In this document: piece by piece, positions 1,095 through 62,730 of the stretch
Layout of the letters: every line of letters starts with the position of its first letter
Position numbering within the stretch: position 1 is the stretch's first letter
NCBI GenBank assembly: GCA_043719295.1
Contig: JAYSUD010000012.1
Location: 26,790-90,789 of the forward strand
Origin: a bacterium
Lineage (GTDB): Bacteria; Patescibacteriota; Minisyncoccia; Phycocordibacterales; UBA918
DNA: 64,000 nucleotides
Direction of reading: 5' to 3'
Notes under the pieces: model-generated
Database searches by the model: none
What the model was told of the DNA's origin: nothing
What the model saw: only the letters and a program-made list of their open reading frames with translations
Position numbers and translations under genes: made by a program

Positions 1095-1107
1095 ATGTAT
1101 TAGAGAA

Positions 1108-2937: not shown

Positions 2938-2970
2938 TTGACATGTTTACAGCTAGTACGTTTTGAATAC

Positions 2971-3840: not shown

Positions 3841-3918
3841 GCTCGTTTTTTATTCAAATTTGTGTTCTAATACATTTTCAAACGAGCAAATATTTCTTAT
3901 AAACCTTACCTATATACC

Positions 3919-4644: not shown

Positions 4645-4748
4645 CATTTTTCTGTATCCACCAACGCTTGATAACGGGGAGACTGTCATCTACGATTATT
4701 AAATAAACTACTCTTACATACGTAATATCCGCAATAATACCATCCTTT

Positions 4749-4772
4749 AAGCTTTCGGTTAACCGAAAGCTT
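4749..4772. promoter_or_regulatory. Perfect 24-bp palindrome AAGCTTTCGGTTAACCGAAAGCTT, 16 bp upstream of the TrpR-like gene start; candidate operator
   Basis: Seen directly. It shares an 18-bp core, CTTTCGGTTAACCGAAAG, with the palindrome at 5189-5222. The GTTAAC centre resembles trp-operator half-site architecture. It is followed by a tgatatcataataatATG promoter-like stretch. Confidence 0.45.
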
Positions 4773-4787
4773 TGATATCATAATAAT

Positions 4788-5195
4788 ATGACGAATGTTT
4801 CAAAAATATCCCTTCCTCCCGAACAGCTCAATGCACTTTTTCACCAGCTAAGTTGTAGTTTGGGTGCACTTGAACCAAAACATATTAATTCCTTTCTCTC
4901 AGACTTACTCGGTACCGAGGAACGTATTATGATTGCAAAGCGACTTGCTGTAATCATAATGCTCATACAAGGACAATCTTTATATAAGATAGCAACAGTA
5001 CTTCAACTAAGTACTTCAACTGTAGACTCAATTCAAAAAAAGCTTAAGCTAGGTGAATACGATTTTATTGTTCGCACATTTAAAAAAGAGAGGAAGAAAT
5101 TTACAGGAATTCTGGATGTTATTGAAAATATACTCAGTGTTGGTGGGATAATGCCAAGTCGGGTTGGTCTAGATCGATATAAAGCACTGCGGTAA
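4788..5195 (+). CDS. TrpR/YerC-family small DNA-binding regulator
   Basis: LLGTEERIMIAKRLAVIIMLIQGQSLYKIATVLQLSTSTVDSIQKKLK matches the YerC/TrpR-related family (DLL.p.ER..la.R......L..g.s.reIa..lgvS.aTvtR). Confidence 0.6.
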   Translation: MTNVSKISLPPEQLNALFHQLSCSLGALEPKHINSFLSDLLGTEERIMIAKRLAVIIMLIQGQSLYKIATVLQLSTSTVDSIQKKLKLGEYDFIVRTFKKERKKFTGILDVIENILSVGGIMPSRVGLDRYKALR

Positions 5196-5222
5196 CCTTT
5201 CGGTTAACCGAAAGGTTACCGC
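5189..5222. promoter_or_regulatory. Perfect 34-bp palindrome GCGGTAACCTTTCGGTTAACCGAAAGGTTACCGC overlapping the stop codon of the TrpR-like gene
   Basis: Seen directly. It has the same 18-bp core as 4749-4772. No T-run follows, so it is not a canonical intrinsic terminator. It may be an operator or an RNA hairpin. Confidence 0.4.
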
Positions 5223-5261
5223 ATTAAAAACGTGAGGTTATTCTTTAGTTAAACTCAACCA

Positions 5262-5507
5262 CTACTTTTTGAAGTGTATAAACCACATCTTTTTGACTGT
5301 AGGAAGTGAAAGTGTTGAAAGAAAATATCCGCCAACAGGCACAAGCCCATTAATTAGTGGTGCTTCATTACTAATTAGTTTCAAAAAAGTTACTGCCGTA
5401 AGATATGTAATGCCCATAATGAAAAACCCTCGGGTGTAACTTGTTTCCCAAGCTTTATCAAGTTCAACGCGATTGTTCCTTTGTAAAATTTCTTCAATGC
5501 TTTGCAT
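5262..5507 (-). CDS. Small hypothetical membrane protein
   Basis: 81-aa ORF with two hydrophobic segments (FFIMGITYLTAVTFLKLI, LVPVGGYFLSTLSL). It lies directly upstream of the GDSL hydrolase on the same strand. Confidence 0.3.
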   Translation of the reverse strand: MQSIEEILQRNNRVELDKAWETSYTRGFFIMGITYLTAVTFLKLISNEAPLINGLVPVGGYFLSTLSLPTVKKMWFIHFKK

Positions 5508-5511
5508 ATAT

Positions 5512-6156
5512 TTATAATATTTTATTTTCTTCTAACATGCTCTTAATTTTCAGATACATATATTCATGACCGAGCTCATTTGGATGTATCCCGTCTGGAA
5601 GGCAAACTGATTCTTTCCCTTGGTATACATCTTGAATATTAAAGAATAATTGTCCGTGCGCTATTGCAAATTTTTGGAGAACAGCATTATATCTTGAAAT
5701 TTCTTTATTGCTATATCCATGTGTTGTTTTCCATGTCATTGGTTGAACCCTTTTATCAAAAACTGGTGCAATACCAACAATAATAATTTTTTTGAATAAA
5801 TCTGATATAGACTGATAAATCGATTCAAGATTTTTATTCATTTCTGCTACAGAAACACGATTCTGTCCTGTACCCATTTCATACTGAGAATCATTTACCC
5901 CAATAGCCAAAATCGCTACGTCAAAGTCTTCTGGAGGATATTTCAAGATACGTGCTTCCGATTCTGCTCTCACACGCTTCAGTAAATCGGAAGTATTATC
6001 TCCTGAAACTCCCAAGTTAAAAATAGTTCTATTATATTGATAATCCGAGACAACTTCCCTTTCAAAACATTCTTTAATAAGCCGATTACACCAACCGCCT
6101 CCAGACATGTCACAAAAACCTTGAGTGATACTATCTCCAAATACTAAAATACGCAT
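5512..6156 (-). CDS. SGNH/GDSL-family hydrolase (lipase/esterase-like)
   Basis: N-terminal ILVFGDSIT (GDS block) and C-terminal DGIHPN (catalytic D..H) are hallmarks of the SGNH fold. Confidence 0.8.
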   Translation of the reverse strand: MRILVFGDSITQGFCDMSGGGWCNRLIKECFEREVVSDYQYNRTIFNLGVSGDNTSDLLKRVRAESEARILKYPPEDFDVAILAIGVNDSQYEMGTGQNRVSVAEMNKNLESIYQSISDLFKKIIIVGIAPVFDKRVQPMTWKTTHGYSNKEISRYNAVLQKFAIAHGQLFFNIQDVYQGKESVCLPDGIHPNELGHEYMYLKIKSMLEENKIL

Positions 6157-6157
6157 T

Positions 6158-7600
6158 TTATGATTCTAACCTCTTAAACAAATTTTCAGGTTTTTTGTTG
6201 GAAAGGATTGCTTCTTTTATAATTACATTAGTTTCGGGCATAATTGGGTAGAGCAACCGAGCGATAGTATAGAGTTCAGTTACAAGTTCAATAATTATTT
6301 TTCGTGCAGCAGGCTTATCAACTTTTACCAACTTAAACGGCTCAGTCACAGCAATTTTTTCATCAAGCTCCCCCACCTTTTTCCATATATAATCACATGC
6401 CCCTTGGAAGTTGTATGTTTCAAGTGCATCACTATACTCTTTGGGAAAATCAGCTGATGCAGGTTTTAGAATTGGTTCATCAAGATGTGTCTCTGCCATC
6501 TGCATGATACGCGCAACTAAGTTCCCTAAACCGTTAACTAAGTTTGCGGTGTAGTACTCATCCATTTTTTCCCAAGTTAAATCGGAGTCGTCAAATGGAT
6601 GTACATGACGGAGAAATATGTAGCGCGTTGCGTCAGTGCCATATTTTGCCACAAGCGCATATGGTGAAATAACATTTCCTAACGACTTACTCATCTTGTG
6701 TCCATCACTATTGATGAAGCCGTGATATATCACTTTGTCTGTTGCTTTAATTTGCGCACTTTTCAACATCGCCTGCCACATCACTGACTGAAAACGCACT
6801 TGGTCTTTACCAGCAACCTGGAGTGTCTCTCCATCAACCCAGAACTTTTGAAAATTACCTTCGGTGTCCTCTGGCCAACCAAGTGCTGAGATGTAGCTTG
6901 TTAATGCGTCAAACCATACATACATTATTTGCTCGTCATCCCCAGGTACAGGAACACCCCAGTCCATCCGTGATTTTTCGCGTGAGATTGAAAAGTCTTC
7001 AAGTCCTGCCTGCACAAAATTGAGTGCCTCTTGTCGTCGCCACTCTGGTGCAATAACGTTTTCATTTGAGAGATACAACTCAAGGTAACTTTGGTACTTT
7101 GAAAGTCGGAAGAAATAATTTTCTTCTTCAACTTCTTCTGCATTTGTTAGATGGATGGCACACATCTTCCCTCCTTCAAGTTCCGATTCTTTATAAAATA
7201 ATTCGCACCCTACACAATACAACCCAGTATATTTCTTTTTGTAGATGTCACCTGCATTTACACACTTCTCCCAAATTGCTTGCGCCGCTTTCTTGTGTGC
7301 TTCATCAGTGGTGCGAATAAACTTATTGTATGACAAGTTAAATGCCCCTTTGAGCTTTTGAAACTCTGCCGCATAGTGGTCTACATACGCCTGTCGCGAC
7401 TGCCCTTTTTCATCAGCTTTTTGCGCAATCTTCTGTCCATGCTCATCAGTCCCCGTATTAAAAAACACCTCGTGACCCATGAGCCGCCAGTAGCGAGCGA
7501 GTGTATCTGCCTGTATAAAATCAAGCCCATGCCCCATGTGTGGGTCAGCGTTTACGTACGGAAGTGTAGTTGTTATGTAGCGTGCTTTTTTGTCAGACAT
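6158..7600 (-). CDS. metG: Methionyl-tRNA synthetase (short form)
   Basis: TTLPYVNADPHMGHG (HIGH region) and KMSKSLGN motifs. 480 aa, with no C-terminal dimerisation domain. Confidence 0.95.
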   Translation of the reverse strand: MSDKKARYITTTLPYVNADPHMGHGLDFIQADTLARYWRLMGHEVFFNTGTDEHGQKIAQKADEKGQSRQAYVDHYAAEFQKLKGAFNLSYNKFIRTTDEAHKKAAQAIWEKCVNAGDIYKKKYTGLYCVGCELFYKESELEGGKMCAIHLTNAEEVEEENYFFRLSKYQSYLELYLSNENVIAPEWRRQEALNFVQAGLEDFSISREKSRMDWGVPVPGDDEQIMYVWFDALTSYISALGWPEDTEGNFQKFWVDGETLQVAGKDQVRFQSVMWQAMLKSAQIKATDKVIYHGFINSDGHKMSKSLGNVISPYALVAKYGTDATRYIFLRHVHPFDDSDLTWEKMDEYYTANLVNGLGNLVARIMQMAETHLDEPILKPASADFPKEYSDALETYNFQGACDYIWKKVGELDEKIAVTEPFKLVKVDKPAARKIIIELVTELYTIARLLYPIMPETNVIIKEAILSNKKPENLFKRLES

Positions 7601-7669
7601 AATCTAAATACAGTACCATAGCCCTTAAATAAAAAAAGTGGCCGGTCCCATTAAGGACCGGATCCATCT

Positions 7670-8161
7670 TTACAACAACGAGCTGAAACGACTTGTCATA
7701 TCAGATTCCAGAGGAGGTTCTTTCATGAGCACATTTGCTAGCGCCGTCCTCATATTCGTGACCGACTTTTGGTTGCGCGTCTTTCCAATATCTTTTGGCC
7801 ACTCATTGCGAGAAAGTCTATGATACCAGAAGTATCCTGGGCCAAAGGGTTTAGCTTGAATAAGAACTGGGCCTCTGGATACTATTCCAATTGGCTTCAA
7901 ATCAAGTATCCAGCCGCTTTTCAGAGCAATCCAGGAGTGTTCGTTATCACAAACTTTTCCATCTTCGAAAAGAGTTATAAACGACCCCGATACAACACGA
8001 GCTTGAATCAATGGGGCAACAGCTCGAGCAATAATATGGCAGGTGCGTGGCTCCCCAAAGTAATCTTCCCGCAACAGAAGTTCCATAAGATATTCAGCGT
8101 ACACAAAACGATATCGATCTTTCGGGCTAATATCGTTTACCTGGTGATAGAACATCTCCAC
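7670..8161 (-). CDS. Hypothetical protein
   Basis: 163-aa ORF co-oriented with the flanking metG and glyQS. The overlapping plus-strand ORF 7769-8314 is judged spurious. No motif recognised. Confidence 0.35.
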   Translation of the reverse strand: MEMFYHQVNDISPKDRYRFVYAEYLMELLLREDYFGEPRTCHIIARAVAPLIQARVVSGSFITLFEDGKVCDNEHSWIALKSGWILDLKPIGIVSRGPVLIQAKPFGPGYFWYHRLSRNEWPKDIGKTRNQKSVTNMRTALANVLMKEPPLESDMTSRFSSLL

Positions 8162-8211
8162 ATCCTCCCCTGTCTGTCGGTTTCTGTATTCAGTCCGAGA
8201 GTACGGTACCT

Positions 8212-9606
8212 CTATTTCAAGAAAGAAACAAGGTCAGCGATTGCTACGCGCTCTTGCACTCCAGTATCACGGTTACGGACGGTGACGGTGTCTTTCAAAG
8301 AGGGGTCTTCTTGACCTAAGGTTTCAAAGTCAATGGTGACACATGCAGGGGTTCCAATTTCGTCTTGTCGGCGGTAGCGTTTTCCGACGTTGCCGTTGTC
8401 ATCAAATTCAGCGCGCATTTCTTTTGAGAGAAGAGCAAATACTTCTTCTGCTTTAGCAACCAGTTCTGGTTTGTTTTTAAGGAGTGGAAATACTGCTACT
8501 TTGATTGGTGCAAGATTCTTGGGGAGTCGTAACACAGTACGTGTTTCGCCACCAAGTTCATCTTCATCATAAAACTCAGTCATGACCGCTAAGAAAGTCC
8601 GGTCGAGTCCAGCAGAAGTTTCTACTACATGGGGAATATATTTCTCGTTGGTATATGGATCAGTGTATTCCATTGAAACTCCTGAAAATGTTTGATGTTG
8701 GGTAAGGTCATAGTTACCTCGTGCATGAATACCTTCAAGCTCTTTAAAACCAAATGGGAAATTGTATTCAATATCAAATGCTGCTTTTGCATAAAAGACC
8801 AGGTTTTCATGTTCATGAAAACGGAGGTTTTCTGGTTTGAAACCCATATCAATGTAGTACTGCATTCGTTTTGCTTTCCACACTTCGTAGATAGTCATTT
8901 CGTCAACCGGAGAAACGAACATCTGCATTTCCATTTGTTCAAACTCTCGCTTACGGAAGATGTACTGTCGTGGTGCAATTTCATTTCGGAATGCTTTACC
9001 AATTTGCGCAATTCCAAAAGGGACTTTAACCCGCGTACTATCGAGGACATTTTTAAAGTTTATATAGATACCCTGGCACGTTTCTCCTCGTAAGTACGCA
9101 GGTTCTTTTGTCCAATCTTCAGAGAAGTTTCCGAGGTTTGTTTGTGCGAGCAAGTTAAACTGTCGCACTTCACCAAAATTCTTTTGCCCGCACTTTGGAC
9201 ACACAAGCTTTTCACGATTAGCATCAAAAAGTTCATTAATTTCTTCAACTGACATTTTTTCGTCAGCAAATACATCAAGTTCTTCAAGTAAGTGGTCGGC
9301 TCGTGATCGAGTGTTACATTCTTTACATAAAACCATCGGGTCTGAAAAACCGCCAACGTGACCTGATGCTTCCCATACTTTTGGATGTGTCACAATTGCT
9401 GAATCAAGACCTACAATATTTCGCTCTCCTTGCACCATCGCCTTCCACCATGATGCTTTAATATTATTTGCGAGTTCAACACCATAGGGACCATAATCAA
9501 ACGACCCCACAAACCCGCCATAAATTTCACTGCCCTGAAACACAAATCCTCTTCGCTTACACAACGATACAATTTTCTCCATCTTTTCGGAATTATTTTC
9601 TGCCAT
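8212..9606 (-). CDS. glyQS: Glycyl-tRNA synthetase, dimeric alpha2 (class II) type
   Basis: MEKIVSLCKRRGFVFQGSEIYGGFVGSFDYGPYGVELANNIK is the canonical alpha2-GlyRS N-terminus. Class II motifs follow. Confidence 0.95.
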   Translation of the reverse strand: MAENNSEKMEKIVSLCKRRGFVFQGSEIYGGFVGSFDYGPYGVELANNIKASWWKAMVQGERNIVGLDSAIVTHPKVWEASGHVGGFSDPMVLCKECNTRSRADHLLEELDVFADEKMSVEEINELFDANREKLVCPKCGQKNFGEVRQFNLLAQTNLGNFSEDWTKEPAYLRGETCQGIYINFKNVLDSTRVKVPFGIAQIGKAFRNEIAPRQYIFRKREFEQMEMQMFVSPVDEMTIYEVWKAKRMQYYIDMGFKPENLRFHEHENLVFYAKAAFDIEYNFPFGFKELEGIHARGNYDLTQHQTFSGVSMEYTDPYTNEKYIPHVVETSAGLDRTFLAVMTEFYDEDELGGETRTVLRLPKNLAPIKVAVFPLLKNKPELVAKAEEVFALLSKEMRAEFDDNGNVGKRYRRQDEIGTPACVTIDFETLGQEDPSLKDTVTVRNRDTGVQERVAIADLVSFLK

Positions 9607-9630
9607 AATTTTCGTACAATATCATTAATT

Positions 9631-11583
9631 TCATTCTTTAGCACGGACTACCCCTGAAGCATCGTTATTTCCACTTTCAGATGGAATCTTTGTCGTAATC
9701 GCGGGACTGGTATCACGCACGGTGGTACTGGTGAATCGGTCTGTTGCTTCAATGCGTTGTTCACTAATAAGTGTTGGAGTGGTGCCGATTTGAAGTGAAC
9801 GAGGTAAGAGTGAGACTTGGAAAGAGGTGTATGTTTCTTTGTTAGATTCAATGTTGCCTGCTTTCCACGTGATAGCTCTTGTTGTCGGATTGTATGTCAC
9901 AGCTCCATTACCTTCAACAATATTAAGCCATGATATATACGCTGGTAAGCTTGCTGTAACTACAGCATTCGTGACATTGTTTGAACCATTTTGTACTACA
10001 AGCGAAACAGTATATGTTGTTGCCTTGTCTGATACAGGAGGTACAGGACCCGTATCTTTGAAAATGCCGTTGTTGTAACTCACAACACCTACCAAGTTTG
10101 GCGCACTGACGACTTTGATAACACTTGCGGCAGTTCCTGTTAACTGTTCGGCAACTTGGTTTTCAGATACACGTCGTGCTTTTGCATTGACGTTAATGTT
10201 GACCTGTGGAGTTTGTGACACTTCTCCTGTTGGTTCGATACTAAAAGAAAGTCGTTCTGATTCTCCTGGAGTCACCTGCTCTAAACCTTGCGTATTTGAA
10301 ACATCCCACACGATAGTATTTTTCGCTTCATCAAAATAACCTCCTGAAGGACTCACTTCAGAAACTGAAAAAGCGTTACCTCCAAGTTTTACTTCAACGA
10401 TAATATCGTAGAGTGTATCGTCAAGGGAATTAGTTAAAGCAAGCTGTACGTTTGCTCGTTTACCAGGAGCTATTGCAACTTCAGACTTATCTGAATTATC
10501 AATTTTCATATCGATGTCTAAAAATGGTTGCTCGATTTTAAACTCAGTTTGTGCGGTTGCGAAAATTGAAGCAAGACTTTGCGGATCTTTTTCATTTGGT
10601 ACACCGACGGTAAAGTTAATGGCGTTGTCGTCACTCTCTTTTCCAACGACAATTCCCGCTATAGTGATTTTTGTTTCTTTTTCGGGTTCAAGATTTTTAA
10701 TAAGCCACATACTTTCGGTATGTGTTGGTGGTGGAGTTGCTTTTGTGAAATCAAACCCTTCTGGATATTCCGCTTTAACCAATATCTCAGAAAGAGCTGT
10801 TGGTGAGTTTGAAATAATAGTGAGAGTAACCTCAGTCTCTTGCCCTGAAGAGATTTTCTTTAACGTGTCAGCTCTGACAATAATGGGTGATGAACTAATT
10901 TTAAATCGCAACGGTTCTGCTTCTTTAAAAAAAGTAGCATTTGAACCTTGGACGCGATATTCGATTTCTACTTTCACAATCTTCTCTTCATTCTCTTCGC
11001 CAAAAACCAGCGCACGCATGGGGATGTTGACGGTCTCACCTTGTTTAATTGTTTGTAAGGGTAAACGTTCAGTGAATAACTCTTTACCTTCCTCAGTTAC
11101 TGACTTGGTTCCTTTAGGGTACTCAACGATAAGTACTGCTGATTCAATCGAGACTGAGTTGTCATTTGTGATACCAATCTGCATTTGAAGTTCCGATCCT
11201 CCCCCTACGGTAAAAGGTCCTGTAGCTGAAAGGGTGATGTTTTCTCCAGAAATACTTTTACCGCCAAACAGTAAGAAGAGACTTGAAACCACAATCGCTA
11301 GCATGAAAAAACCTAAGCCTGCAAATAAAATTTTAGATCGATATCCTTTTTTTCTTTTTTGCATACCTATGTCTTCTCTAAAACTTTGTGTGCTTTCCTC
11401 TGTAGTATAAACCTCTTGTACAGGAGGTAATACAATAGGTTTAGGCGGTTCTTGCCAAGAAGTAGGAGCCGTATGTACGACATCACTAAGCGGGTGACTG
11501 ACTGAAGACACTTTTTTTGTTCCCCGCTCATAAAGCCGTTTTCGCACTTCTTCAATACTTTCTTGATCTTTAATACCACTCAT
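9631..11583 (-). CDS. Large membrane-anchored extracellular protein (single N-terminal TM helix, beta-rich Ser/Thr/Val ectodomain)
   Basis: 650 aa with a cytoplasmic basic N-terminus, a TM segment ILFAGLGFFMLAIVVSSLFLLF, then long low-hydrophobicity repeats of T/S/V/N-rich beta-strand-like sequence. This is typical of CPR surface proteins. No catalytic motif found. Confidence 0.6.
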   Translation of the reverse strand: MSGIKDQESIEEVRKRLYERGTKKVSSVSHPLSDVVHTAPTSWQEPPKPIVLPPVQEVYTTEESTQSFREDIGMQKRKKGYRSKILFAGLGFFMLAIVVSSLFLLFGGKSISGENITLSATGPFTVGGGSELQMQIGITNDNSVSIESAVLIVEYPKGTKSVTEEGKELFTERLPLQTIKQGETVNIPMRALVFGEENEEKIVKVEIEYRVQGSNATFFKEAEPLRFKISSSPIIVRADTLKKISSGQETEVTLTIISNSPTALSEILVKAEYPEGFDFTKATPPPTHTESMWLIKNLEPEKETKITIAGIVVGKESDDNAINFTVGVPNEKDPQSLASIFATAQTEFKIEQPFLDIDMKIDNSDKSEVAIAPGKRANVQLALTNSLDDTLYDIIVEVKLGGNAFSVSEVSPSGGYFDEAKNTIVWDVSNTQGLEQVTPGESERLSFSIEPTGEVSQTPQVNINVNAKARRVSENQVAEQLTGTAASVIKVVSAPNLVGVVSYNNGIFKDTGPVPPVSDKATTYTVSLVVQNGSNNVTNAVVTASLPAYISWLNIVEGNGAVTYNPTTRAITWKAGNIESNKETYTSFQVSLLPRSLQIGTTPTLISEQRIEATDRFTSTTVRDTSPAITTKIPSESGNNDASGVVRAKE

Positions 11584-46453: not shown

Positions 46454-46947
46454 ATGGTCGAAGTTACTTGCAAACAGTGCTCAAAGTTATTTAATGCTAA
46501 ACCATCTTGGATTAAAAATGGGTATGGTAAATTTTGTTCTCGTGAGTGTGGCCATAAAGCAAATCGTACAGGTAAAGTAGTGACCTGTTTTATCTGCAGT
46601 AAGGAGGTTTATAAACAAGGTAAAGCCTTAAAAGGTTCTAAGAGTGGTAAATTTTTTGTTCAAAATCATGTCAGACAAAATGGAGAAATACTGAGTTTAT
46701 TGCAGAAAAACATGCTAATTGGAAAGGTGGTTTGCACGCATATCGAAGAATAAAAACGCAAAGTGGTGACATACAAATTTGTACCATATGCAAAATTACC
46801 GACAAGAGAGTGCTCGCTGTACACCACATCGATCAGAATAGAAAAAACAATACCATTGAAAATCTTGCCTGGTTGTGCCACAATTGCCACCACCTTGTCC
46901 ATCACTACAAAGAAGGGCAAGATTCACTTATGGCGGCTATGGTATAA
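46454..46947 (+). pseudogene. HNH endonuclease disrupted by a frameshift in a T6 homopolymer (46652-46657); 3' end overlaps tRNA-His
   Basis: Frame A (46454-46753) encodes FCSRECGHKANRTGK zinc-ribbon-like repeats. Frame B, from ~46651 to the TAA at 46945-46947, encodes FCSKSCQTKWRNTEFIAEKHANWKGG...AVHHIDQNRKNN...LCHNCHHLVH (HNH motif). The two frames join if the T6 run were T7. Confidence 0.6.
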
Positions 46948-47004
46948 TGGCTATTACTGGAGCTTGTGGAGCTCTCAATCCGAGTTCAATCCTCGGTAGC
47001 CGCC
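46931..47004 (+). tRNA. tRNA-His (GTG) with encoded G-1 and C73
   Basis: Cloverleaf folds. Acceptor gGCGGCTA/TAGCCGCc, anticodon stem GGAGC/GCTCT with loop TTGTGGA, T-arm CCGAG-TTCAATC-CTCGG. Confidence 0.85.
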
Positions 47005-47008
47005 CACG

Positions 47009-47035
47009 AGAAAAAGTCCCTTCGGGGATTTTTTT
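47009..47035 (+). terminator. Intrinsic terminator after tRNA-His (AAAAAGTCCCTTCGGGGATTTTTTT)
   Basis: Seen directly. Confidence 0.7.
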
Positions 47036-47036
47036 G

Positions 47037-47196
47037 TGGGCGGTTAAGAAACTGCCCTACGGCAGTTTCGTCCGGGAATTGAAAGGCGGAGTCATGTCGC
47101 TTGCGACAGACGAGTCAGGGTCGTGAGCGATATTGAAACAAGGAGACTTGCGACTATGTTTCAAATCGACTCCTGACCAATTCCCGGTAGCCGCCC
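47037..47196 (+). ncRNA. ~160-nt structured element closed by an acceptor-like helix GGGCGG/CCGCCC and ending with a 13-nt copy of the tRNA-His 3' end (CGGTAGCCGCCCA); candidate small RNA or att-site scar
   Basis: Nested helices are seen directly: CCGGGAATTG(47071-80)/CAATTCCCGG(47177-86), AAACTGCC/GGCAGTTT, GGAGTC/GACTCC, TTGAAACA/TGTTTCAA. A T-rich run follows at 47197-47215. Confidence 0.3.
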
Positions 47197-47341
47197 AATT
47201 TTTTGAGATTTTTTTACAGCGCATTTTAGATCTCTTTTTTGTATCTATTGTACTCAGTTGAACCCTGTGCAATTTCTATAAATAACCAGTGACCGTGATC
47301 TTCCTGTCATACGCATAAAGCTATTTACAATACTTGTGTTG

Positions 47342-47359
47342 ATACCCCCCTAGGGGTAT
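47342..47359. promoter_or_regulatory. GC-rich inverted repeat ATACCCCCCTAGGGGTAT overlapping the -10 (TATAAT) of the csoR promoter; candidate CsoR operator
   Basis: Seen directly. It resembles known CsoR operators (TACCC-n-GGGTA type). Confidence 0.5.
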
Positions 47360-47370
47360 AATAATTAGCG

Positions 47371-47634
47371 ATGATACAAGATACAAAAAAAATAATTCGT
47401 CGATTAAAAATAATTGAGGGGCAGGTACGTGGTCTACAGACAATGGTTGAAAATAAAACTTACTGTATCGACGTAATCACCCAAACCTCTGCTATCAAAC
47501 AGGCGCTTTCTAATGTGGAAGACATTTTGCTTGAAGAGCACTTAAAAGGCTGTGTTGTTAACCAAATTAAAGCAGGTAAAACTACCAAAGCAACTGCAGA
47601 AATTTTGCAGGTTTACCAACTTAAACGAAAATAG
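47371..47634 (+). CDS. csoR: CsoR/RcnR-family metal-sensing repressor
   Basis: RLKIIEGQVRGLQTMVENKTYCIDVITQTSAIKQAL...EEHLKGCV shows the conserved C..H..C metal-ligand arrangement of DUF156. Confidence 0.8.
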   Translation: MIQDTKKIIRRLKIIEGQVRGLQTMVENKTYCIDVITQTSAIKQALSNVEDILLEEHLKGCVVNQIKAGKTTKATAEILQVYQLKRK

Positions 47635-48184
47635 TATGGAGCATTCATCCCCAACTCACCACGAAGTTCACGTACACAACTCGAGTAAAGTGACAGTCTG
47701 GTCATACTGGCCGATTGCTGGCATCTATCTTTTGTCTTTACTATTCGCACTCTACACGATTCAATTTCATGTATACCCTGACTATATGTCGCACCTCATG
47801 GGATTTGTTTTGGTATTGTTTGGGATTATCAAAATATCAGATATCGCAGGTTTTGCAAAAGGATTTGCTCTGTATGATCCACTTGCTAAGCGAAGTGATA
47901 CGTACGCGCAAGTGTATCCATTTCTCGAAATCGCCCTAGGCATACTATTTATCTTACAGCTTCTTATTATACCCGCCACACTCATCACTCTCTTTATATA
48001 CAGCGCGAGCTTATATGGAGCACTCCAGTCACTTCGTAAAAAGGAGGCTCTCCATTGCGTCTGTCTAGGTACATATTTTAAACTCCCGCTCTCTACGGTA
48101 ACCATTCTCGAAGCTGGCTTTATGATTGCAATGTGTGCGTGGATGCTCTTAATGATTAACACGATGGCTGGAATGGCCATGTAA
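47552..48184 (+). CDS. DoxX/MauE-like 4-TM membrane protein (start probably at 47636)
   Basis: The Met at 47636 follows the csoR stop. There are four hydrophobic helices and an HCVCLG Cys pair. Confidence 0.45.
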   Translation: MLLTKLKQVKLPKQLQKFCRFTNLNENSMEHSSPTHHEVHVHNSSKVTVWSYWPIAGIYLLSLLFALYTIQFHVYPDYMSHLMGFVLVLFGIIKISDIAGFAKGFALYDPLAKRSDTYAQVYPFLEIALGILFILQLLIIPATLITLFIYSASLYGALQSLRKKEALHCVCLGTYFKLPLSTVTILEAGFMIAMCAWMLLMINTMAGMAM

Positions 48185-48196
48185 TAAAAAATATTT

Positions 48197-48859
48197 ATGA
48201 AAAATCAATCAATTATCACAATTTGTTTTCTCGCTGTGGGGATTGGATTAGCTATCGGCTACGCTCTATGGGGAGGAGCTGATGGAAAGTATACATTCTC
48301 AAGCCGAACCGATACAACAAGCGTCCCTGCAGGAATGCACAAAATGCCCGATGGCTCAATGATGGATAATGGAAATACCCAAAGTGAAATGGGTATGATG
48401 AATGGAATGGATCACAGTATAATGATGGTTAAAAGTGAGCGTGAGTTTTTAGATGGTATGATCCCCCACCACCAAGAAGCGGTAGACACAGCAAAAGAAG
48501 TAATCGAACGAGGGGGTTCAACTCCAGAAATTAAAAAGTTGGCACAAGATATTGTCGTAGCACAAGAGAAAGAAATTGGCATGATGAAAGAGTGGTATCA
48601 ACGTTGGTATGGTGAAGTGTATGTAACTAACGCTAAAGTCTACAAGCCAATGATGCGCGAACTGTCATCACTTAGCGGGGCTTCACTTGATACAATATTT
48701 TTAGAAGATATGGTTATGCACCACATGGGAGCGATTATGATGGCGCAAAGCGTTCAACCGTATGTAAAACACCAAGAAATAACTGACCTAACCAAAGCAA
48801 TCGTTGAAACTCAAATGGAAGAGATGCAACTAATGCGTCGTATAATTAATGATCTGTAA
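48197..48859 (+). CDS. DUF305-family protein (copper-resistance-associated)
   Basis: EREFLDGMIPHHQEAVDTAK and a second MVMHHMGAIMMAQ repeat are characteristic of DUF305. There is an N-terminal TM anchor and a Met-rich linker. Confidence 0.7.
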   Translation: MKNQSIITICFLAVGIGLAIGYALWGGADGKYTFSSRTDTTSVPAGMHKMPDGSMMDNGNTQSEMGMMNGMDHSIMMVKSEREFLDGMIPHHQEAVDTAKEVIERGGSTPEIKKLAQDIVVAQEKEIGMMKEWYQRWYGEVYVTNAKVYKPMMRELSSLSGASLDTIFLEDMVMHHMGAIMMAQSVQPYVKHQEITDLTKAIVETQMEEMQLMRRIINDL

Positions 48860-58493: not shown

Positions 58494-59291
58494 ATGGAAA
58501 CAGAATCTGACACCACAGAATTAGAACAAGAAAAGCAAAGGAATTTTGCAATTTTATATAAAAGCACACGATTTTCGAAATATCTCGCAATAGTATTATT
58601 TATCTCATCGCCATTTGCTGGTGGGTGGATTGGGTATACCTACGCACCAGAGAGAGTGATGGAGATAGGGAGGGCTGTTGAGCAGGCAGTGGAGACAGAT
58701 CTGAGCAGTGATGAAAGAAATAAGATTCTGATTAGAGAGAATTTGGCTAATGATTTAAAAATTAATCAAGGACAGGAACAATTTCCTCGTGTACTTGATG
58801 AACCTAATGGGTTTGACCCCTATGCTAATGACCCCAAAGCCAGAAACTTGAATATAAACGGCCTCTCATTTACCAATATTAGCAGAAGTCGTGCACTCAC
58901 GACTATCGATTTTGGTCTAAATAGATTTACAGACGAACAAGTTAATGTATCTGGAAACTTTGAATTATGGTTTGATCAGATGTTTGGAAAACTGGTTTTA
59001 CGATTTCTGCCAGATGATGAAACGCAGAGAATATTGCCTTGGCCTAGTACAAATTCTGACCCCTACGACAAGTATTTAGTCGTTATTAATGACACAGATT
59101 ATTCACTTGCAGACCTATGCGACAGTACTTGCGAGATTGAATTATCCAATTCTGAGGATCAAAGATTGATAACATATTCTGGGTCAGCAATGATTGAGTC
59201 TGTTACCCTAGAAATTCAGAATATAGGTGTAGATTCTTTTGGCTCAAGCATCAAGTTATACGAGATGGTTTTGGTTAAGAAGGAGATATAG
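58494..59291 (+). CDS. Hypothetical membrane-anchored protein
   Basis: N-terminal TM (YLAIVLFISSPFAGGWIGYTY) followed by a soluble domain. No motif recognised. Confidence 0.45.
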   Translation: METESDTTELEQEKQRNFAILYKSTRFSKYLAIVLFISSPFAGGWIGYTYAPERVMEIGRAVEQAVETDLSSDERNKILIRENLANDLKINQGQEQFPRVLDEPNGFDPYANDPKARNLNINGLSFTNISRSRALTTIDFGLNRFTDEQVNVSGNFELWFDQMFGKLVLRFLPDDETQRILPWPSTNSDPYDKYLVVINDTDYSLADLCDSTCEIELSNSEDQRLITYSGSAMIESVTLEIQNIGVDSFGSSIKLYEMVLVKKEI

Positions 59292-59369
59292 TGCCCTCGT
59301 TAGGACTTGAACATTACATGTTCAGTACACCTTTTGGATATTTTTCCTTCGTCAAAATATCTCAAAAGG

Positions 59370-59420
59370 TTTTCAAGTCCTGACGTAAAGCATAGAAATG
59401 CTTTACTTCCCGGGACAGGA
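59370..59420. repeat. Repeat B copy 1: inverted tRNA-Leu 3'-end-derived motif (TTCAAGTCCTG-[hairpin insert]-CCCGGGACAGG)
   Basis: On the plus strand it reads like the tRNA-Leu T-arm/acceptor 3' side with a 26-nt hairpin inserted. The second copy is at 59483-59530. Confidence 0.45.
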
Positions 59421-59435
59421 ATCTTTTTCTCTACG

Positions 59436-59484
59436 AGAACTGTACAGGTTGTCGATATTTTCTTTAAAAATATCAGACAACCTT
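59436..59484. repeat. Hairpin repeat family A, copy 3
   Basis: gagaactgtacaggttgtcgatattttctttaaaaatatcagacaacctt. Confidence 0.55.
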
Positions 59485-59530
59485 TTCAAGTCCTGACGTG
59501 ATGTGTCCCACACATCACTTCCCGGGCACA
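59483..59530. repeat. Repeat B copy 2
   Basis: ttttcaagtcctgacgtgatgtgtcccacacatcacttcccgggcaca. Confidence 0.45.
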
Positions 59531-59556
59531 AAAAAATCCCCGTAGGGATTTTATTT
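59530..59556 (-). terminator. Intrinsic terminator immediately after tRNA-Leu (minus strand)
   Basis: AAAAAAATCCCCGTAGGGATTTTATTT on plus. The minus-strand reading gives a hairpin and then a T-run. Confidence 0.55.
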
Positions 59557-59557
59557 G

Positions 59558-59639
59558 TGCCCGGGACAGGACTTGAACCTGCACACCTTTCGGCTTATCC
59601 ACCTCAAGGATAAATGTCTACCAATTTCAACACCCGGGC
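59558..59639 (-). tRNA. tRNA-Leu (GAG), long variable arm
   Basis: The revcomp gives GCCCGGGTGTTGAAATTGGTAGACA-TTTATCC-TTGAGGT-GGATAAG-(long var arm)-GCAGGTTCAAGTCCTGT-CCCGGGCA. The anticodon loop TTGAGGT gives GAG. 82 nt. Confidence 0.85.
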
Positions 59640-62205: not shown

Positions 62206-62278
62206 GCGCGATTAGCTCAGTTGGTAGAGCAATTCGTTTACACCGAAAAGGTCGGGGGTTCAAGTCCCTCATCGCGCA
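62206..62278 (+). tRNA. tRNA-Val (TAC)
   Basis: GCGCGAT-TA-GCTCAGTTGGTAGAGC-A-ATTCG-TTTACAC-CGAAA-AGGTC-GGGGGTTCAAGTCCCTC-ATCGCGC-A. Anticodon TAC. Confidence 0.85.
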
Positions 62279-62286
62279 CTTTTATG

Positions 62287-62317
62287 AAAAAGCTAAGCCT
62301 CGTGCTTAGTTTTTTTA
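62287..62317 (+). terminator. Intrinsic terminator after tRNA-Val (AAAAAGCTAAGCCTCGTGCTTAGTTTTTTT)
   Basis: Seen directly. A second terminator-like hairpin lies at 62446-62472 (AAAAACAGTCCCTGCGGACTGTTTTTT). Confidence 0.65.
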
Positions 62318-62410
62318 TAAACAGTCGCAAGAGACTTGAAAAGCTTTTGTGGAATTTTATGAGTGAAGCGAAATAAAATACCCAAAAGGTATACCGATTC
62401 AGTATGAATC

Positions 62411-62430
62411 AAGTCCCTCATCGCGCACAA
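62411..62430 (+). repeat. 20-nt direct copy of the tRNA-Val 3' end (TCAAGTCCCTCATCGCGCAC), 133 bp downstream of the tRNA
   Basis: Identical to 62260-62279, seen directly. A terminator-like hairpin follows it, as one follows the tRNA. Confidence 0.6.
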
Positions 62431-62661
62431 AACGTCAAGAAAAACAGTCCCTGCGGACTGTTTTTTAGTTTTGTGAAGCGGAGACATGTTTTGCTCTTTT
62501 CCAGAGCAAAACAGTCGAGCTGGGGCAGCTAAGTTCTTATGAACGTAGTGAATTAGAAACTTGCGCCAAAAGAAAATACTTTCGGTTCTTACCGAAGGTT
62601 TTTTTATGTAAGCAGAGAGGCGAGAAAAGGTTGACTGATACTTTCTGGATTTTACAAACAG

Positions 62662-62700
62662 AAATATCGACAACCTGTACTGAACATGTAATGTTCAGCT
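62662..62700. repeat. Hairpin repeat family A, partial copy 4, fused to the GTACTGAACATGTAATGTTCAGC hairpin (inverse copy at 59308-59334)
   Basis: aaatatcgacaacctgtactgaacatgtaatgttcagc. Plus-strand 59308-59336 reads gaacattacatgttcagtacacctttt. Confidence 0.5.
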
Positions 62701-62730
62701 CCCCTGTCCAATACATAAATCTTATACAAA

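What the first reader, a model, noticed from the sequence alone, without database searches (positions are those of the whole stretch)
46931..47215. tRNA-His is followed by a 160-nt highly structured element whose ends mimic the tRNA-His acceptor stem and that terminates with a 13-nt copy of the tRNA 3' end
After tRNA-His and its terminator, nt 47037-47196 begin GGGCGG and end CGGTAGCCGCCCA. The last 13 nt are identical to the tRNA-His 3' end. The 5' GGGCGG pairs with CCGCCC plus a discriminator A, giving a tRNA-like acceptor closure. Inside are nested perfect helices (CCGGGAATTG/CAATTCCCGG, AAACTGCC/GGCAGTTT, GGAGTC/GACTCC, TTGAAACA/TGTTTCAA). Two readings are possible. (a) It is an attL/attR-type scar of an integrase-mediated event at tRNA-His, with almost all cargo since lost. 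(b) It is a tRNA-derived structured small RNA. The adjacent frameshifted HNH endonuclease supports a mobile-element history.
Basis: seen in the sequence. Interest (0 to 1): 0.6.

Follow-up and report, generated by a model that had tools for sequence, protein, structure and literature searches.

The report
tRNA-end-matched structured mini-element family
The 160-nt block after tRNA-His is an intact copy of a previously undescribed family of small, strongly folded elements that sit right behind tRNA genes in CPR (Patescibacteria) bacteria, each carrying both a copy and a reverse-complement copy of a tRNA gene's last ~20 bases, and that behave like tiny site-specific insertions.

Summary
tRNA-His (46933-47005) is followed by a terminator-like hairpin and a 161-nt block (47037-47197) whose last 13 nt repeat the tRNA 3' end (chance expectation 0.01).

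It is not a decayed att scar. I found about 15 homologues in Parcubacteria and Saccharibacteria contigs. On their alignment 96% of cells in predicted pairs form a standard pair, and 32 of 47 pairs change on both sides. G-U pairs outnumber A-C 39 to 6, so the tRNA-sense strand folds. No Rfam family matches, and ARAGORN calls no tRNA or tmRNA.

The 5' part is the reverse complement of a tRNA-His 3' end, split by a variable hairpin. The 3' part is a direct copy. In four other genomes these arms follow the local tRNA variant. In this window they match each other and another lineage's tRNA-His. Similarly built units with tRNA-Leu- and tRNA-Val-matched arms lie behind those genes in this window.

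Close relatives lack the unit. Junctions are exact (…CGCCCA|unit|TTTTT…). Copies occur in tandem, as mosaics and at secondary CGCCCA sites.

Best reading, with confidence 0.45: a miniature non-autonomous integrative element whose single strand folds to rebuild its attachment site. Whether the fold acts as RNA or as DNA is open.

The parts
46932..47006 (+). tRNA-His(GTG) gene with encoded G-1. Its last 13 nt (46994-47006, CGGTAGCCGCCCA) are the left copy of the repeat.
   Evidence: ARAGORN; Rfam tRNA at 54.3 bits; repeat search.
47007..47036 (+). Start of the inserted unit: CGAG, then a terminator-like hairpin (AAAAAGTCCC-TTCG-GGGATTTTTTT).
   Evidence: Sequence. Hairpins of the same kind precede every homologue, directly after …CGCCC(A/C/T). 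Loci L051 and L053 have identical tRNA-His genes but different hairpins and cores, so the hairpin belongs to the unit.
47037..47197 (+). The structured element, 161 nt.
   Evidence: Covariance model R1 scores it 154.5 bits, E = 4e-40. RNA fold z = -7.8. Family covariation.
47037..47046 (+). P1 5' strand, TGGGCGGTTA. It is the reverse complement of the tRNA-His acceptor 3' strand plus C73, C and A, with one G-U. It pairs with 47188-47197.
   Evidence: I17.
47048..47069 (+). P2 hairpin (GAAACTGCC-CTAC-GGCAGTTTC), flanked by the conserved linkers AG and CGT.
   Evidence: 8 of its 9 pairs change on both sides across the family (helix 2). Two otherwise identical Saccharibacteria copies differ only here.
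47072..47083 (+). P3 5' strand, CCGGGAATTG, plus AA. This is the reverse complement of the T loop and T-stem 3' strand (TTCAATTCCCGG) of the tRNA-His variant found in L004, L041 and L047. It pairs with 47178-47187.
   Evidence: I12.
47085..47116 (+). Inner hairpin domain (family helices 4-6).
47119..47178 (+). Second inner domain. GGTCG/TGACC carries a G-U pair in 12 of 15 sequences. GAGCGAT pairs with ATCG-ACTC. An apical A/T-rich hairpin (47133-47164) carries the loop motif GAG…GCGA.
   Evidence: helices 7-9.
47178..47197 (+). 3' arm, CAATTCCCGGTAGCCGCCCA: a direct copy of a tRNA-His 3' end. The last 13 nt equal the resident tRNA. Bases 1-19 of the arm equal the tRNA-His 3' end of another lineage (L003/L004).
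   Evidence: 19 of 19 nt identical to L003/L004.
47198..47216 (+). Right flank, ATTTTTTGAGATTTTTTTA. The same kind of T-rich motif directly follows …CGCCCA at unoccupied sites elsewhere.
   Evidence: L045 tRNA-His; unoccupied repeat sites in L026, L041 and L045.
59291..59556 (-). Similarly built units behind tRNA-Leu(GAG) (59557-59639, minus strand). In order: hairpin; TGTGCCCGGGA (reverse complement of the tRNA-Leu 3' end); AG; hairpin; CGT; CAGGACTTGAA (reverse complement of its T loop and T stem); core; TCCTGTCCCGGG copy. A second unit follows, fused through the palindromic CCCGGG.
   Evidence: Sequence. Inverted blocks of 12 and 11 nt and a direct block of 12 nt, against a shuffled-control maximum of 9-10. 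Fold -94.7 kcal/mol, z = -8.8.
62280..62710 (+). Related units behind tRNA-Val(TAC) (62206-62279). The first has a hairpin, GAGACTTGAA, an apical hairpin with a GAGTGAAGCGAA loop, and a 20-nt exact copy of the tRNA-Val 3' end (62409-62428). Two further units of other subtypes follow.
   Evidence: Sequence. 20-nt direct copy. The first unit folds only weakly (z = -2.6).

Best explanation
The hairpin plus the 161-nt block (47007-47197) is one intact copy of a family of roughly 190-bp non-autonomous insertion units. The units integrate immediately after the 3' end of a tRNA gene, here tRNA-His, at a short core (…CGCCCA).

Each unit carries its own copy of a tRNA 3' end as its 3' arm. Joined to the hairpin, this arm would be the attP-like site of a circular form. 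Each unit also carries the reverse complement of that sequence as its 5' arm, interrupted by a variable hairpin (P2).

On the tRNA-sense strand the two arms pair (P1 and P3). The single strand thereby rebuilds a duplex copy of the attachment site on top of a conserved two-domain core.

I infer that this fold is what a trans-acting recombinase recognises. Integron attC sites and the folded CTX-phage attP work this way.

Shown: the fold and its covariation; the arm-to-tRNA matches; presence/absence between relatives; the exact junctions; tandem, mosaic and secondary-site copies.

Inferred: recombination as the mechanism; the folded strand as the substrate; whether that strand is DNA or RNA. No recombinase was identified.
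For: 1. It is a conserved family, not debris. True homologues occur in a Patescibacteria genome with the same gene order (L025), in Saccharibacteria (L021, L026) and in metagenome contigs (L028, L033, L035, L040, L041, L045, L049, L053).

2. Covariation. On 15 sequences, 96.3% of cells in predicted pairs form a standard pair, against 78.9% when partners are shuffled and 29-44% when partners are slid. 32 of 47 pairs change on both sides. Counts of 39 G-U against 6 A-C pairs point to the tRNA-sense strand.

3. Arms match tRNA genes. Across 11 tRNA genes that have a unit directly behind them (7 His, 3 Leu, 1 Val), the unit carries a direct copy of 10-20 nt of that tRNA's 3' end, plus at least one inverted block of 8-16 nt. 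tRNA genes without an adjacent unit give only chance-length matches of 4-9 nt. In L051 and L053 the tRNA-His has the T-stem variant CCCGA, and both arms follow it (TCGGG… and …CCCGATAGCC).

4. The arms were brought in, not copied locally. In this window the arms (CAATTCCCGG) match each other and the tRNA-His of other lineages. They do not match the resident T stem (CAATCCTCGG). This fits a crossover inside the shared 13 nt.

5. Insertion. L001 has an identical tRNA-His but no unit, and diverges exactly after GCCGCCCA. L047 and L048 are also empty. L051 and L053 have identical tRNAs but different units. Ten occupied sites begin directly after …CGCCC(A/C/T), most with CG. Seven copies end in GCCGCCC(A/C/T), and T-rich flank follows in four of them (window, L053, L041, L033). 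Uninterrupted sites read CGCCCA|ATTTTT….

6. Saccharibacteria copies keep tRNA-His-type arms even though they sit behind an unrelated repeat that shares only …CGCCCA.

7. Tandem, degenerate, nested and mosaic copies exist. The same tRNA arms occur with different cores. This copy is 89% identical to a second copy on L040, whose first copy has the Saccharibacteria-type core (63% identical).

8. The fold is equally exceptional with DNA parameters (z = -8.5). A terminator-like hairpin sits between the tRNA and the element, and the simple scan reports no promoter-like site between the tRNA and the element's 5' end.
Against: No integrase, transposase or reverse transcriptase was found among 46 ORFs of the window or next to the other copies examined.

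No circular form, empty allele of this very genome, or single-stranded stage can be observed with these data.

G-U pairs kept at fixed positions and conserved loop motifs are more typical of RNA than of folded DNA.

In L025 and L053 the T-loop part of the 5' arm is conserved although its partner in the 3' arm has diverged. The fold alone does not explain this.

One recombinase serving three different tRNA ends would have to read a shared feature, such as the T-loop box, and that is untested.

The alignment used for the pair counts was fitted to the model, which leans towards the structure. An independent MAFFT/RNAalifold run gave 21 of 47 pairs with changes on both sides.

The upstream hairpins are generic A-tract/GGGG terminators. 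L048 has one without an element. The unit boundary on that side is therefore less secure than on the 3' side.
Confidence: 0.45

Rival explanations
1. A functional small RNA of the tRNA transcription unit. It would be read through from the tRNA promoter and released by tRNA-processing enzymes. P1 stacked on P3 reproduces the sequence of the tRNA's acceptor and T stems, including G-1:C73 for His. It would then act as a mimic of the tRNA top half: a decoy, a competitor for processing or charging enzymes, or an antisense partner of the precursor tRNA 3' end. Its spread would be secondary.
For: Strand-specific G-U pairs (39 against 6) and G-U pairs kept at fixed positions. Conserved junction nucleotides (AG, CGU, GAAARG) and a conserved loop motif, GAGC-GAA-GCGA. 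The element always has the same orientation as the tRNA. T runs or terminators follow the 3' arm. The three-way junction has tRNA-like topology, with a continuous 3' strand. In L025 and L053 the 5' arm stays perfectly complementary to the tRNA T loop although its internal partner has diverged.
Against: A terminator-like hairpin with 5-7 T lies directly upstream of the element. There is no room for a promoter, and the scan finds no promoter-like site between the tRNA and the element's 5' end.

The element is dispensable, since it is absent in L001, L047 and L048.

The complementarity covers T-loop bases and trailer bases rather than the mature CCA end. That fits the gene or the precursor, not the folded mature tRNA.

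Saccharibacteria copies are not next to a tRNA.

The model does not by itself explain the exact junctions, the secondary sites or the mosaics.
Confidence: 0.3
2. A programmable guide-type element. The conserved scaffold would carry exchangeable segments (the two arm blocks) that select the target tRNA gene by base pairing, for a nucleic-acid-guided recombinase or nuclease encoded elsewhere. This would be analogous in logic to IS110 bridge RNAs or to transposon homing guides.
For: The same linkers and cores occur with His-, Leu- or Val-matched arms, and the same arms occur with different cores. Several arms follow single-base variants of the host tRNA. The size of about 160 nt is similar to known guide scaffolds (my own knowledge).
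Against: No associated protein gene lies next to any copy. The presumed guide segments are base-paired to an internal copy rather than exposed in loops. Both arms address the same target stretch, not adjacent half-sites. No Rfam family matches.
Confidence: 0.1
3. An inert att scar. It would be the residue of an integrated island whose cargo was deleted, with hairpins that are only terminators and chance palindromes.
For: The direct repeat of the tRNA 3' end is the classic signature of integration at tRNA genes. The tRNA-His flank is a hot spot: a prophage with a large serine recombinase sits at the same tRNA in L003, L004 and L055, and gene content downstream varies in every relative.
Against: The interior is conserved at 55-89% identity across two CPR lineages, with compensatory changes in most helices. 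Closely related copies differ by double compensatory swaps (L041 against L033). A decaying remnant would not behave so.
Confidence: 0.03
4. A by-product of palindrome dynamics. Template switching at the terminator hairpin would have copied the tRNA 3' end in inverted form and kept the arms homogenised. There would be no function and no dedicated mobility.
For: tRNA 3' end, hairpin and 5' arm together form a long inverted repeat. It is a perfect 25-bp palindrome in L025 and at least 19 bp in L033.
Against: It does not explain the conserved linkers AG/CGT and P2 inserted at the same place in His and Leu units. It does not explain the conserved cores, the copies at non-tRNA sites that keep His-type arms, or arms in this window that differ from the resident tRNA.
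Confidence: 0.05

Closest known systems
Integron attC sites and the folded single-stranded attP of CTX phage (my own knowledge of these systems)
   Same: An imperfect palindrome whose two arms pair within one strand to rebuild a duplex recombination site. Structure is conserved more than sequence. There is an extra-helical feature on one arm (here P2) and a variable distal structure (here the core). Units occur in tandem arrays next to an anchor site. The observed order (anchor site, cargo, inverted arm, loop, direct arm) is what such an insertion would give.
   Different: The anchor is the 3' end of a tRNA gene, and the arms copy about 20 nt of it. There is no GTTRRRY core. No IntI or Xer-type gene was found nearby. 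The 'cargo' is only a hairpin. The core is sequence-conserved. A single-stranded DNA stage is not shown.
tRNA-gene-targeting integrative elements and their cis-mobilisable remnants (attL-attR units without an integrase)
   Same: Insertion at a tRNA 3' end. A direct repeat running from the T loop to the 3' end. No recombinase inside. Tandem accretion at the same tRNA.
   Different: Only about 190 bp. An inverted copy of the att block is also present. The interior is a conserved, covarying fold shared across lineages and across three tRNA identities.
tRNA-like RNAs (the tmRNA tRNA-like domain, viral tRNA-like structures)
   Same: The ends pair into a helix with the sequence of a tRNA acceptor stem, here including G-1:C73 of tRNA-His. 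The 3' strand runs on into a T-stem-like helix.
   Different: There is no T loop, D arm or anticodon arm. ARAGORN finds no tRNA or tmRNA, and the Rfam tRNA model does not match. The T-loop bases are paired. The arms match the gene and its trailer, not the CCA end.
MITEs and palindrome-rich miniature transposable elements
   Same: Small, non-coding, with terminal inverted-repeat-like arms, a strong fold, multiple copies and mosaics.
   Different: Strict site specificity behind tRNA genes. The arms equal the target sequence. There is no true target-site duplication: at secondary sites the flank and the 3' arm share only CGCCCA. The structure covaries across phyla.
IS110 bridge RNAs (my own knowledge)
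   Same: A scaffold of about 160-180 nt with exchangeable segments that match a genomic target.
   Different: No adjacent recombinase gene. The matching segments are paired to each other rather than lying in internal loops. Both address the same stretch of the target.

Membership tests
tRNA (Rfam RF00005 / ARAGORN) | Cloverleaf with a D arm, an anticodon arm with a 7-nt loop, and a T arm with a T loop. | tested here: not met
   ARAGORN and the Rfam tRNA model hit only 46933-47005. Nothing is reported in 47037-47197 even at E up to 10. P2 has a 4-5-nt loop, and the T-loop bases are paired.
tmRNA | tRNA-like domain with a T arm, a tag reading frame with a resume codon, and pseudoknots. | tested here: not met
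   ARAGORN, which also finds permuted tmRNA, reports none. There is no Rfam hit. The tiny frames in the apical loop are not conserved between subtypes (sequence comparison).
Any Rfam 15 family | A score at or near the family's gathering threshold. | tested here: not met
   Only the tRNA genes reach threshold in the window. The best other hits are miRNA or snoRNA models far below threshold, both for this copy and for homologues.
Att scar / cis-mobilisable remnant at a tRNA gene | A direct repeat of the tRNA 3' end flanking the inserted DNA, with empty alleles in relatives. | tested here: met
   13 of 13 nt (18 of 20) repeated. L001, L047 and L048 are empty.
Att scar / cis-mobilisable remnant at a tRNA gene | An interior that is residual DNA under no constraint of its own. 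| tested here: not met
   The interior is conserved and covarying.
Folded-strand recombination site (attC / CTX attP type) | The two arms of one strand pair to reproduce the duplex target site. Structure is conserved with covariation, and one strand is favoured. | tested here: met
   P1 and P3 reproduce a tRNA-gene 3' end. Covariation. G-U/G-T asymmetry. The fold is stable with DNA parameters.
Folded-strand recombination site (attC / CTX attP type) | A dedicated tyrosine recombinase acting on the site, and a single-stranded DNA intermediate. | not testable with these tools
   No recombinase domain was found in 46 window ORFs or in the neighbours examined. A recombinase acting in trans cannot be excluded. 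No data bear on single-stranded DNA.
MITE | Terminal inverted repeats plus a duplication of the target site created on insertion. | tested here: inconclusive
   Inverted arms are present. At secondary sites the left flank (…ACGACGTCGCCCA) is not duplicated at the right end (…GGTAGCCGCCCA). The repeat is therefore core identity, not a target-site duplication.
IS110-type bridge RNA | Encoded beside a DEDD/Tnp recombinase gene, with target and donor guides in two internal loops. | tested here: not met
   Neighbouring genes are CsoR, glycosyltransferase, NUDIX and PemK. The matching segments are helical.
Retroelement primer-binding site | Complementarity to the mature 3' end of the tRNA, including CCA. 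| tested here: not met
   The Leu unit reads TTGTGCCC, complementary to the gene flank CAA rather than to CCA. In L025 the complementarity runs 25 nt into the trailer. No reverse transcriptase was found.

The most novel reading that the evidence does not exclude
These units are a new class of nucleic-acid-programmed mobile element (or mobile RNA gene) of CPR bacteria. A conserved scaffold carries exchangeable arms that specify, by complementarity, the 3' end of a particular tRNA gene as landing site. The same scaffold can therefore be retargeted to tRNA-His, tRNA-Leu or tRNA-Val. It may also nucleate the gene-cassette arrays seen downstream of tRNA-His in Saccharibacteria.
Probability: 0.2. 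Interest if true: 0.9.

Novelty: new variant of a known kind. Interest (0 to 1): 0.72.

Why it matters
CPR/Patescibacteria have tiny genomes with little spare DNA. Yet three of the four tRNA genes in this window carry one or more of these units, and they recur in distant CPR lineages.

If they are mobile, they are a compact, protein-free module that finds tRNA gene ends. They would be a new handle on how islands and cassettes (here a CsoR-MauE-DUF305 metal module) accumulate at tRNA genes in these organisms. They could also be a retargetable integration module.

If they act as RNA, they would be a new class of tRNA-end mimic made from the tRNA transcription unit.

Either way the family is a well-supported structured motif absent from Rfam. 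It can now be modelled and searched. It also explains a class of 'tRNA fragment' hits in CPR genome annotation.

Tried and rejected
**Searches that found no real match**
- Viral contig scans with an end pattern, a core motif and a 14-mer of the second core type returned only chance hits in coding DNA, or nothing.
- blastn of the unit against phage and plasmid records found no match.
- Four of 7 genome hits and about 12 of 20 metagenome hits to my patterns were chance matches in genes and were discarded by eye.
- Literature searches for a described equivalent found none among the returned titles and abstracts. The nearest were group I introns in Patescibacteria tRNA genes (PMC13011429, anticodon-loop position 35/36, unrelated) and tRNA-fragment annotation (PMC9897764, seen only as a title and abstract start in a search result).

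**Ideas tested and dropped**
- I first read the roughly 75-nt repeat that precedes the Saccharibacteria copies as a decayed tRNA-His 3' half. Local alignment scores are at the level of shuffled controls, so I dropped that. Its reverse complement reads as a small conserved ORF (MGDVVEDVRTVFE…).
- A distant partner att site: there is no third copy of the 13-mer, no tRNA-His-like remnant in 40-64 kb, and no other CGCCC[AC] in 46-53 kb.
- A link to the HNH gene is rejected. HNH occurs without the element (L001), and the element occurs without HNH (L025, L053).
- The other end of the serine-recombinase prophage at tRNA-His (L055) lies beyond the 10 kb I could fetch.

**Ideas considered by eye only, not computed**
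- Resemblance of CGTCCGGG…CCCGG to the RNase P P4 helix, and hammerhead or HDV-like topologies. The arrangement does not fit, and Rfam gives no hit.
- A tmRNA-like tag or leader peptide in the apical loop (AAGGAG…ATG). The frames are 4-7 codons long, shift between copies, and are absent in the Saccharibacteria type.
Full report

Yes. ARAGORN and Rfam place tRNA-His(GTG) at 46933-47005, with the encoded G-1 at 46932. It is followed by CGAG and a terminator-like hairpin (AAAAAGTCCC-TTCG-GGGATTTTTTT, 47011-47035). A 161-nt block follows at 47037-47197.

The last 13 nt of the block (CGGTAGCCGCCCA, 47185-47197) equal 46994-47006. The 13-mer occurs only twice in the window, against 0.01 expected. 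The similarity extends to 18 of 20 nt (D1).

The block's first 10 nt (TGGGCGGTTA) pair with its last 10 (TAGCCGCCCA).

The + strand folds at -81.1 kcal/mol as RNA (z = -7.8). The - strand folds at -73.7 (z = -7.1). With DNA parameters the values are -46.6 (z = -8.5) and -42.8 (z = -7.7).

**2. Context**

The window is a CPR/Patescibacteria chromosome of about 40% G+C. A ZIP homologue at 64% identity is labelled Candidatus Parcubacteria. A Patescibacteria genome shares the gene order.

The local order is RNR, MscL, YibE/F, Fur, ZIP, a frameshifted HNH gene, tRNA-His, hairpin plus element, CsoR, MauE, DUF305, a sigma factor, then a photolyase-related gene.

None of 46 ORFs examined in the window carries a recombinase, transposase or reverse-transcriptase domain.

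**3. It is a family, not a scar**

No Rfam 15 model matches the block or its relatives, even at permissive thresholds.

A pattern built from the two ends found true homologues in the species-representative genomes. L025 (Patescibacteria UBA6201) has the same gene order, with tRNA-His, hairpin and element. L021 and L026 are two copies on one Saccharibacteria contig.

A conserved internal motif (CGTCCGGGAATYGAAARGCG) then found L028/L030, L033/L034, L035, L040, L041 and L045 in metagenomes. A covariance model (R1) recovered further copies in L040, L045, L049 and L053.

RNAalifold on a structure-blind MAFFT alignment of 9 copies predicts 47 pairs, of which 21 have changes on both sides.

On 15 model-aligned copies:
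- 96.3% of cells in predicted pairs form a standard pair. The figure is 78.9% when partners are shuffled and 29-44% when partners are slid by 1-3 columns.
- 32 of 47 pairs change on both sides.
- This alignment was fitted to the model, so it leans towards the structure.

The fold has these parts:
- P1, formed by the two ends.
- P2, a hairpin flanked by invariant AG and CGU. Eight of its 9 pairs covary.
- P3 (CCGGG/CCCGG, plus an extension).
- Two inner domains. The second is closed by GGUCG/UGACC with a G-U pair in 12 of 15 sequences, and ends in an A/U-rich hairpin with the loop motif GAGC-GAA-GCGA.

For this window's copy the family fold costs -78.8 kcal/mol, against -80.3 for the free minimum.

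G-U pairs outnumber A-C pairs 39 to 6. The folding strand is therefore the tRNA-sense strand. These data cannot tell RNA from single-stranded DNA.

L041 and L033 are close relatives. They differ by a double compensatory swap (AG…CU to GA…UC). L021 and L026 are identical except for the tip of P2 and the last base.

**4. Relation to the tRNA**

The 5' part of the element is the reverse complement of a tRNA-gene 3' end, split into two blocks by AG-P2-CGU:
- TGGGCGGYTA is complementary to TAGCCGCCCA (acceptor 3' strand, C73 and two more bases).
- CCGGGAATYGAA is complementary to TTCRATTCCCGG (T loop and T-stem 3' strand).

The 3' part is a direct copy of the same stretch.

Across 11 tRNA genes that have a unit directly behind them, the downstream unit holds a direct copy of 10-20 nt. 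It also holds at least one inverted block of 8-16 nt of that tRNA's own 3' end. tRNA genes without an adjacent unit give only chance-length matches of 4-9 nt.

The arms follow host variants. In L051 and L053 the tRNA-His T stem is TCGGG/CCCGA. The arms there read TCGGG… and …CCCGATAGCC.

In this window the arms do not follow the resident tRNA. They read CAATTCCCGG, while the resident T stem is CAATCCTCGG. They match each other and the tRNA-His of other lineages, with 19 of 19 nt identical to L003/L004. The arms therefore came with the element. Only the shared 13 nt can have been the site of exchange.

The complementarity covers T-loop bases. In L025 it runs 25 bp into the trailer. In the tRNA-Leu unit it matches the gene flank CAA rather than CCA. 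The arms thus mirror the gene or the precursor, not the mature folded tRNA.

**5. Similarly built units at other tRNAs in this window**

This was not part of the finding but decides its reading.

Behind tRNA-Leu(GAG) (59557-59639, minus strand) the order is: hairpin, TGTGCCCGGGA, AG, hairpin, CGT, CAGGACTTGAA, core, TCCTGTCCCGGG. A second fused unit follows. All arms match tRNA-Leu. The region folds at -94.7 kcal/mol (z = -8.8).

Behind tRNA-Val(TAC) lies a unit ending in a 20-nt exact copy of the tRNA-Val 3' end. Two more units of other subtypes follow.

tRNA-Arg has none.

L025 and L051 also carry tRNA-Leu-matched units. L051 combines tRNA-His arms with the core type seen at tRNA-Leu. Arms and cores are separable modules.

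**6. Evidence for insertion**

Presence and absence among relatives:
- L001 (ZIP 78% identical) has an identical tRNA-His and the HNH gene but no unit. Its sequence departs from the window exactly after GCCGCCCA.
- L047 has no unit. L048 has only a hairpin.
- L003, L004 and L055 carry a prophage of more than 10 kb, with a large serine recombinase, at the same tRNA.
- L051 and L053 have identical tRNA-His genes but different hairpins and cores. This places the hairpin inside the unit.

Junctions:
- In 10 occupied sites the unit begins directly after …CGCCC(A/C/T), in most with CG followed by the hairpin.
- Seven copies end in GCCGCCC(A/C/T). T-rich flank follows directly in four of them: the window, L053, L041 and L033.
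- Uninterrupted sites read CGCCCA|ATTTTTAGAGGTA…. These are the tRNA-His of L045 and several copies of a Saccharibacteria repeat.
- The window's right flank (ATTTTTTGAGAT…) is of that kind.

Secondary sites: in Saccharibacteria the units sit behind a roughly 75-nt repeat that is not detectably tRNA-like. Yet the units keep tRNA-His arms. Flank and 3' arm share only CGCCCA. The repeat is therefore core identity, as between attB and attP, and not a target-site duplication.

Copy behaviour:
- Units occur in tandem with degenerate or partial copies (L025, L026), nested and as mosaics (L045).
- The window copy is 89% identical to a second copy on L040. The first copy on L040 has the Saccharibacteria-type core and is 63% identical.

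Compared with L048, the window has about 2.9 kb inserted between tRNA-His and the photolyase-related gene. The insertion holds the unit plus CsoR, MauE, DUF305 and a sigma factor.

**7. Explanation**

I commit to the following, with confidence 0.45. It is a miniature, non-autonomous, site-specific insertion unit. Its 3' arm, together with the following hairpin, forms the attachment site. Its inverted 5' arm lets the single strand fold so as to present that site as a duplex on a conserved scaffold. This is the logic of integron attC sites and of the folded CTX-phage attP.

The observed order is what such an insertion would leave: anchor site, hairpin, inverted arm with an extra-helical hairpin, variable core, direct arm, original flank.

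Steps shown: the family, the fold, the strand, the arm matches, the junctions and the polymorphism. Steps inferred: recombination, the folded strand as substrate, and a recombinase acting in trans.

The main rival (0.3) is an RNA of the tRNA transcription unit that mimics or pairs with the tRNA's top half. For it speak the G-U pairs kept at fixed positions, the conserved loops and junctions, and the fixed orientation. Against it stand the upstream terminator, the lack of a promoter, the element's dispensability and the copies away from tRNAs.

Other rivals:
- A guide-type programmable element: 0.1.
- Palindrome dynamics: 0.05.
- An inert scar: 0.03.

About 0.07 remains for explanations not listed here.

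**8. Comparison and novelty**

It works most like a folded att site or a cis-mobilisable att unit. It fails or cannot be tested on defining features of each known family (see the membership table).

I rate it a new variant of a known kind (elements that insert at tRNA genes). Three features are unusual:
- Paired inverted and direct copies of the target.
- A covarying scaffold shared across CPR lineages.
- Exchangeable arms for three tRNA identities.

I found no description of it in Rfam 15 or in the literature searches I ran.

**9. Limits**

- All homologues come from metagenome assemblies.
- The helices P1 and P3, which carry the tRNA match, vary little, so their pairing rests mainly on complementarity.
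- No expression data, no read-level data and no complete genomes were available.
- The collection scans were capped, so the family's true range is unknown.

Noticed in passing
window 59291-59556 (minus strand), behind tRNA-Leu 59557-59639: Two fused structured units whose arms are the reverse complement and a direct copy of the tRNA-Leu 3' end. They use the same AG-hairpin-CGT linker as the tRNA-His element. The fold is -94.7 kcal/mol (z = -8.8).
   Followed up: partly
window 62280-62710, behind tRNA-Val 62206-62279: Three successive units of different core subtypes, separated by terminator-like hairpins. The first ends in a 20-nt exact copy of the tRNA-Val 3' end (62409-62428). The second resembles L025 6808-6979.
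   Followed up: partly
L021 (3990, 6375); L026 (2433, 3345, 4189); L041 (2105, 3199); L045 (5958 and 8844 on the minus strand): A roughly 75-nt repeat ending …CTCTACGACGTCGCCCA recurs between genes in these contigs (L021 and L026 are from a Saccharibacteria genome; the others are unlabelled metagenome contigs). Its reverse complement reads as a conserved small ORF (MGDVVEDVRTVFE…IP..). In L033 this ORF overlaps the start of a PemK/MazF-like gene. It is usually followed by ATTTTTAGAGGTA…GATACCCTAC…GAGACGTTCGAACT. The pattern looks like boundaries of a gene-cassette array downstream of tRNA-His. The repeat is not significantly tRNA-like.
   Followed up: partly
L003 / L004 / L055, about 1100-10900: A prophage-like element of more than 10 kb is integrated at the same tRNA-His in a relative. 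It carries a large serine recombinase, a helicase and a DNA methylase. The recombinase reading frame ends inside the antisense of the tRNA 3' end.
   Followed up: partly
window 47340-47362: An inverted repeat, ATACCCC-CCTA-GGGGTAT, overlaps a TATAAT box just upstream of the CsoR-family repressor gene (47371-47634). It looks like that repressor's operator, which would make it the separate promoter of the CsoR-MauE-DUF305 module. This reading rests on my own knowledge of CsoR operators.
   Followed up: no
window 46454-46947; L001 7016-7490; L025 7233-7913: Free-standing homing-endonuclease-type genes sit directly upstream of tRNA genes: a frameshifted HNH before tRNA-His in the window and in L001, and a LAGLIDADG-type ORF before tRNA-Leu in L025. 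Their presence does not correlate with the downstream elements.
   Followed up: partly
L005 (same organism, another sample), contig end at 4847, equal to window 47140: An independent assembly of the same sequence breaks inside the element. This would fit a repeat or a polymorphism at that point.
   Followed up: no
window 47371-48859 and L021 2386-3919: MauE and DUF305 genes lie next to an element copy both in this Parcubacteria-like window and in a Saccharibacteria contig. This may indicate that the metal module and the element travel together.
   Followed up: no
L035 738-945: An outlier copy on a contig of 54% G+C. Its core is conserved, but its 5' strand pairs only with an upstream strand across the hairpin (GGGTCATGATATGAAAATG…CATTTTCATATCATGACCC). 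There is no matching 3' arm and no tRNA nearby.
   Followed up: no
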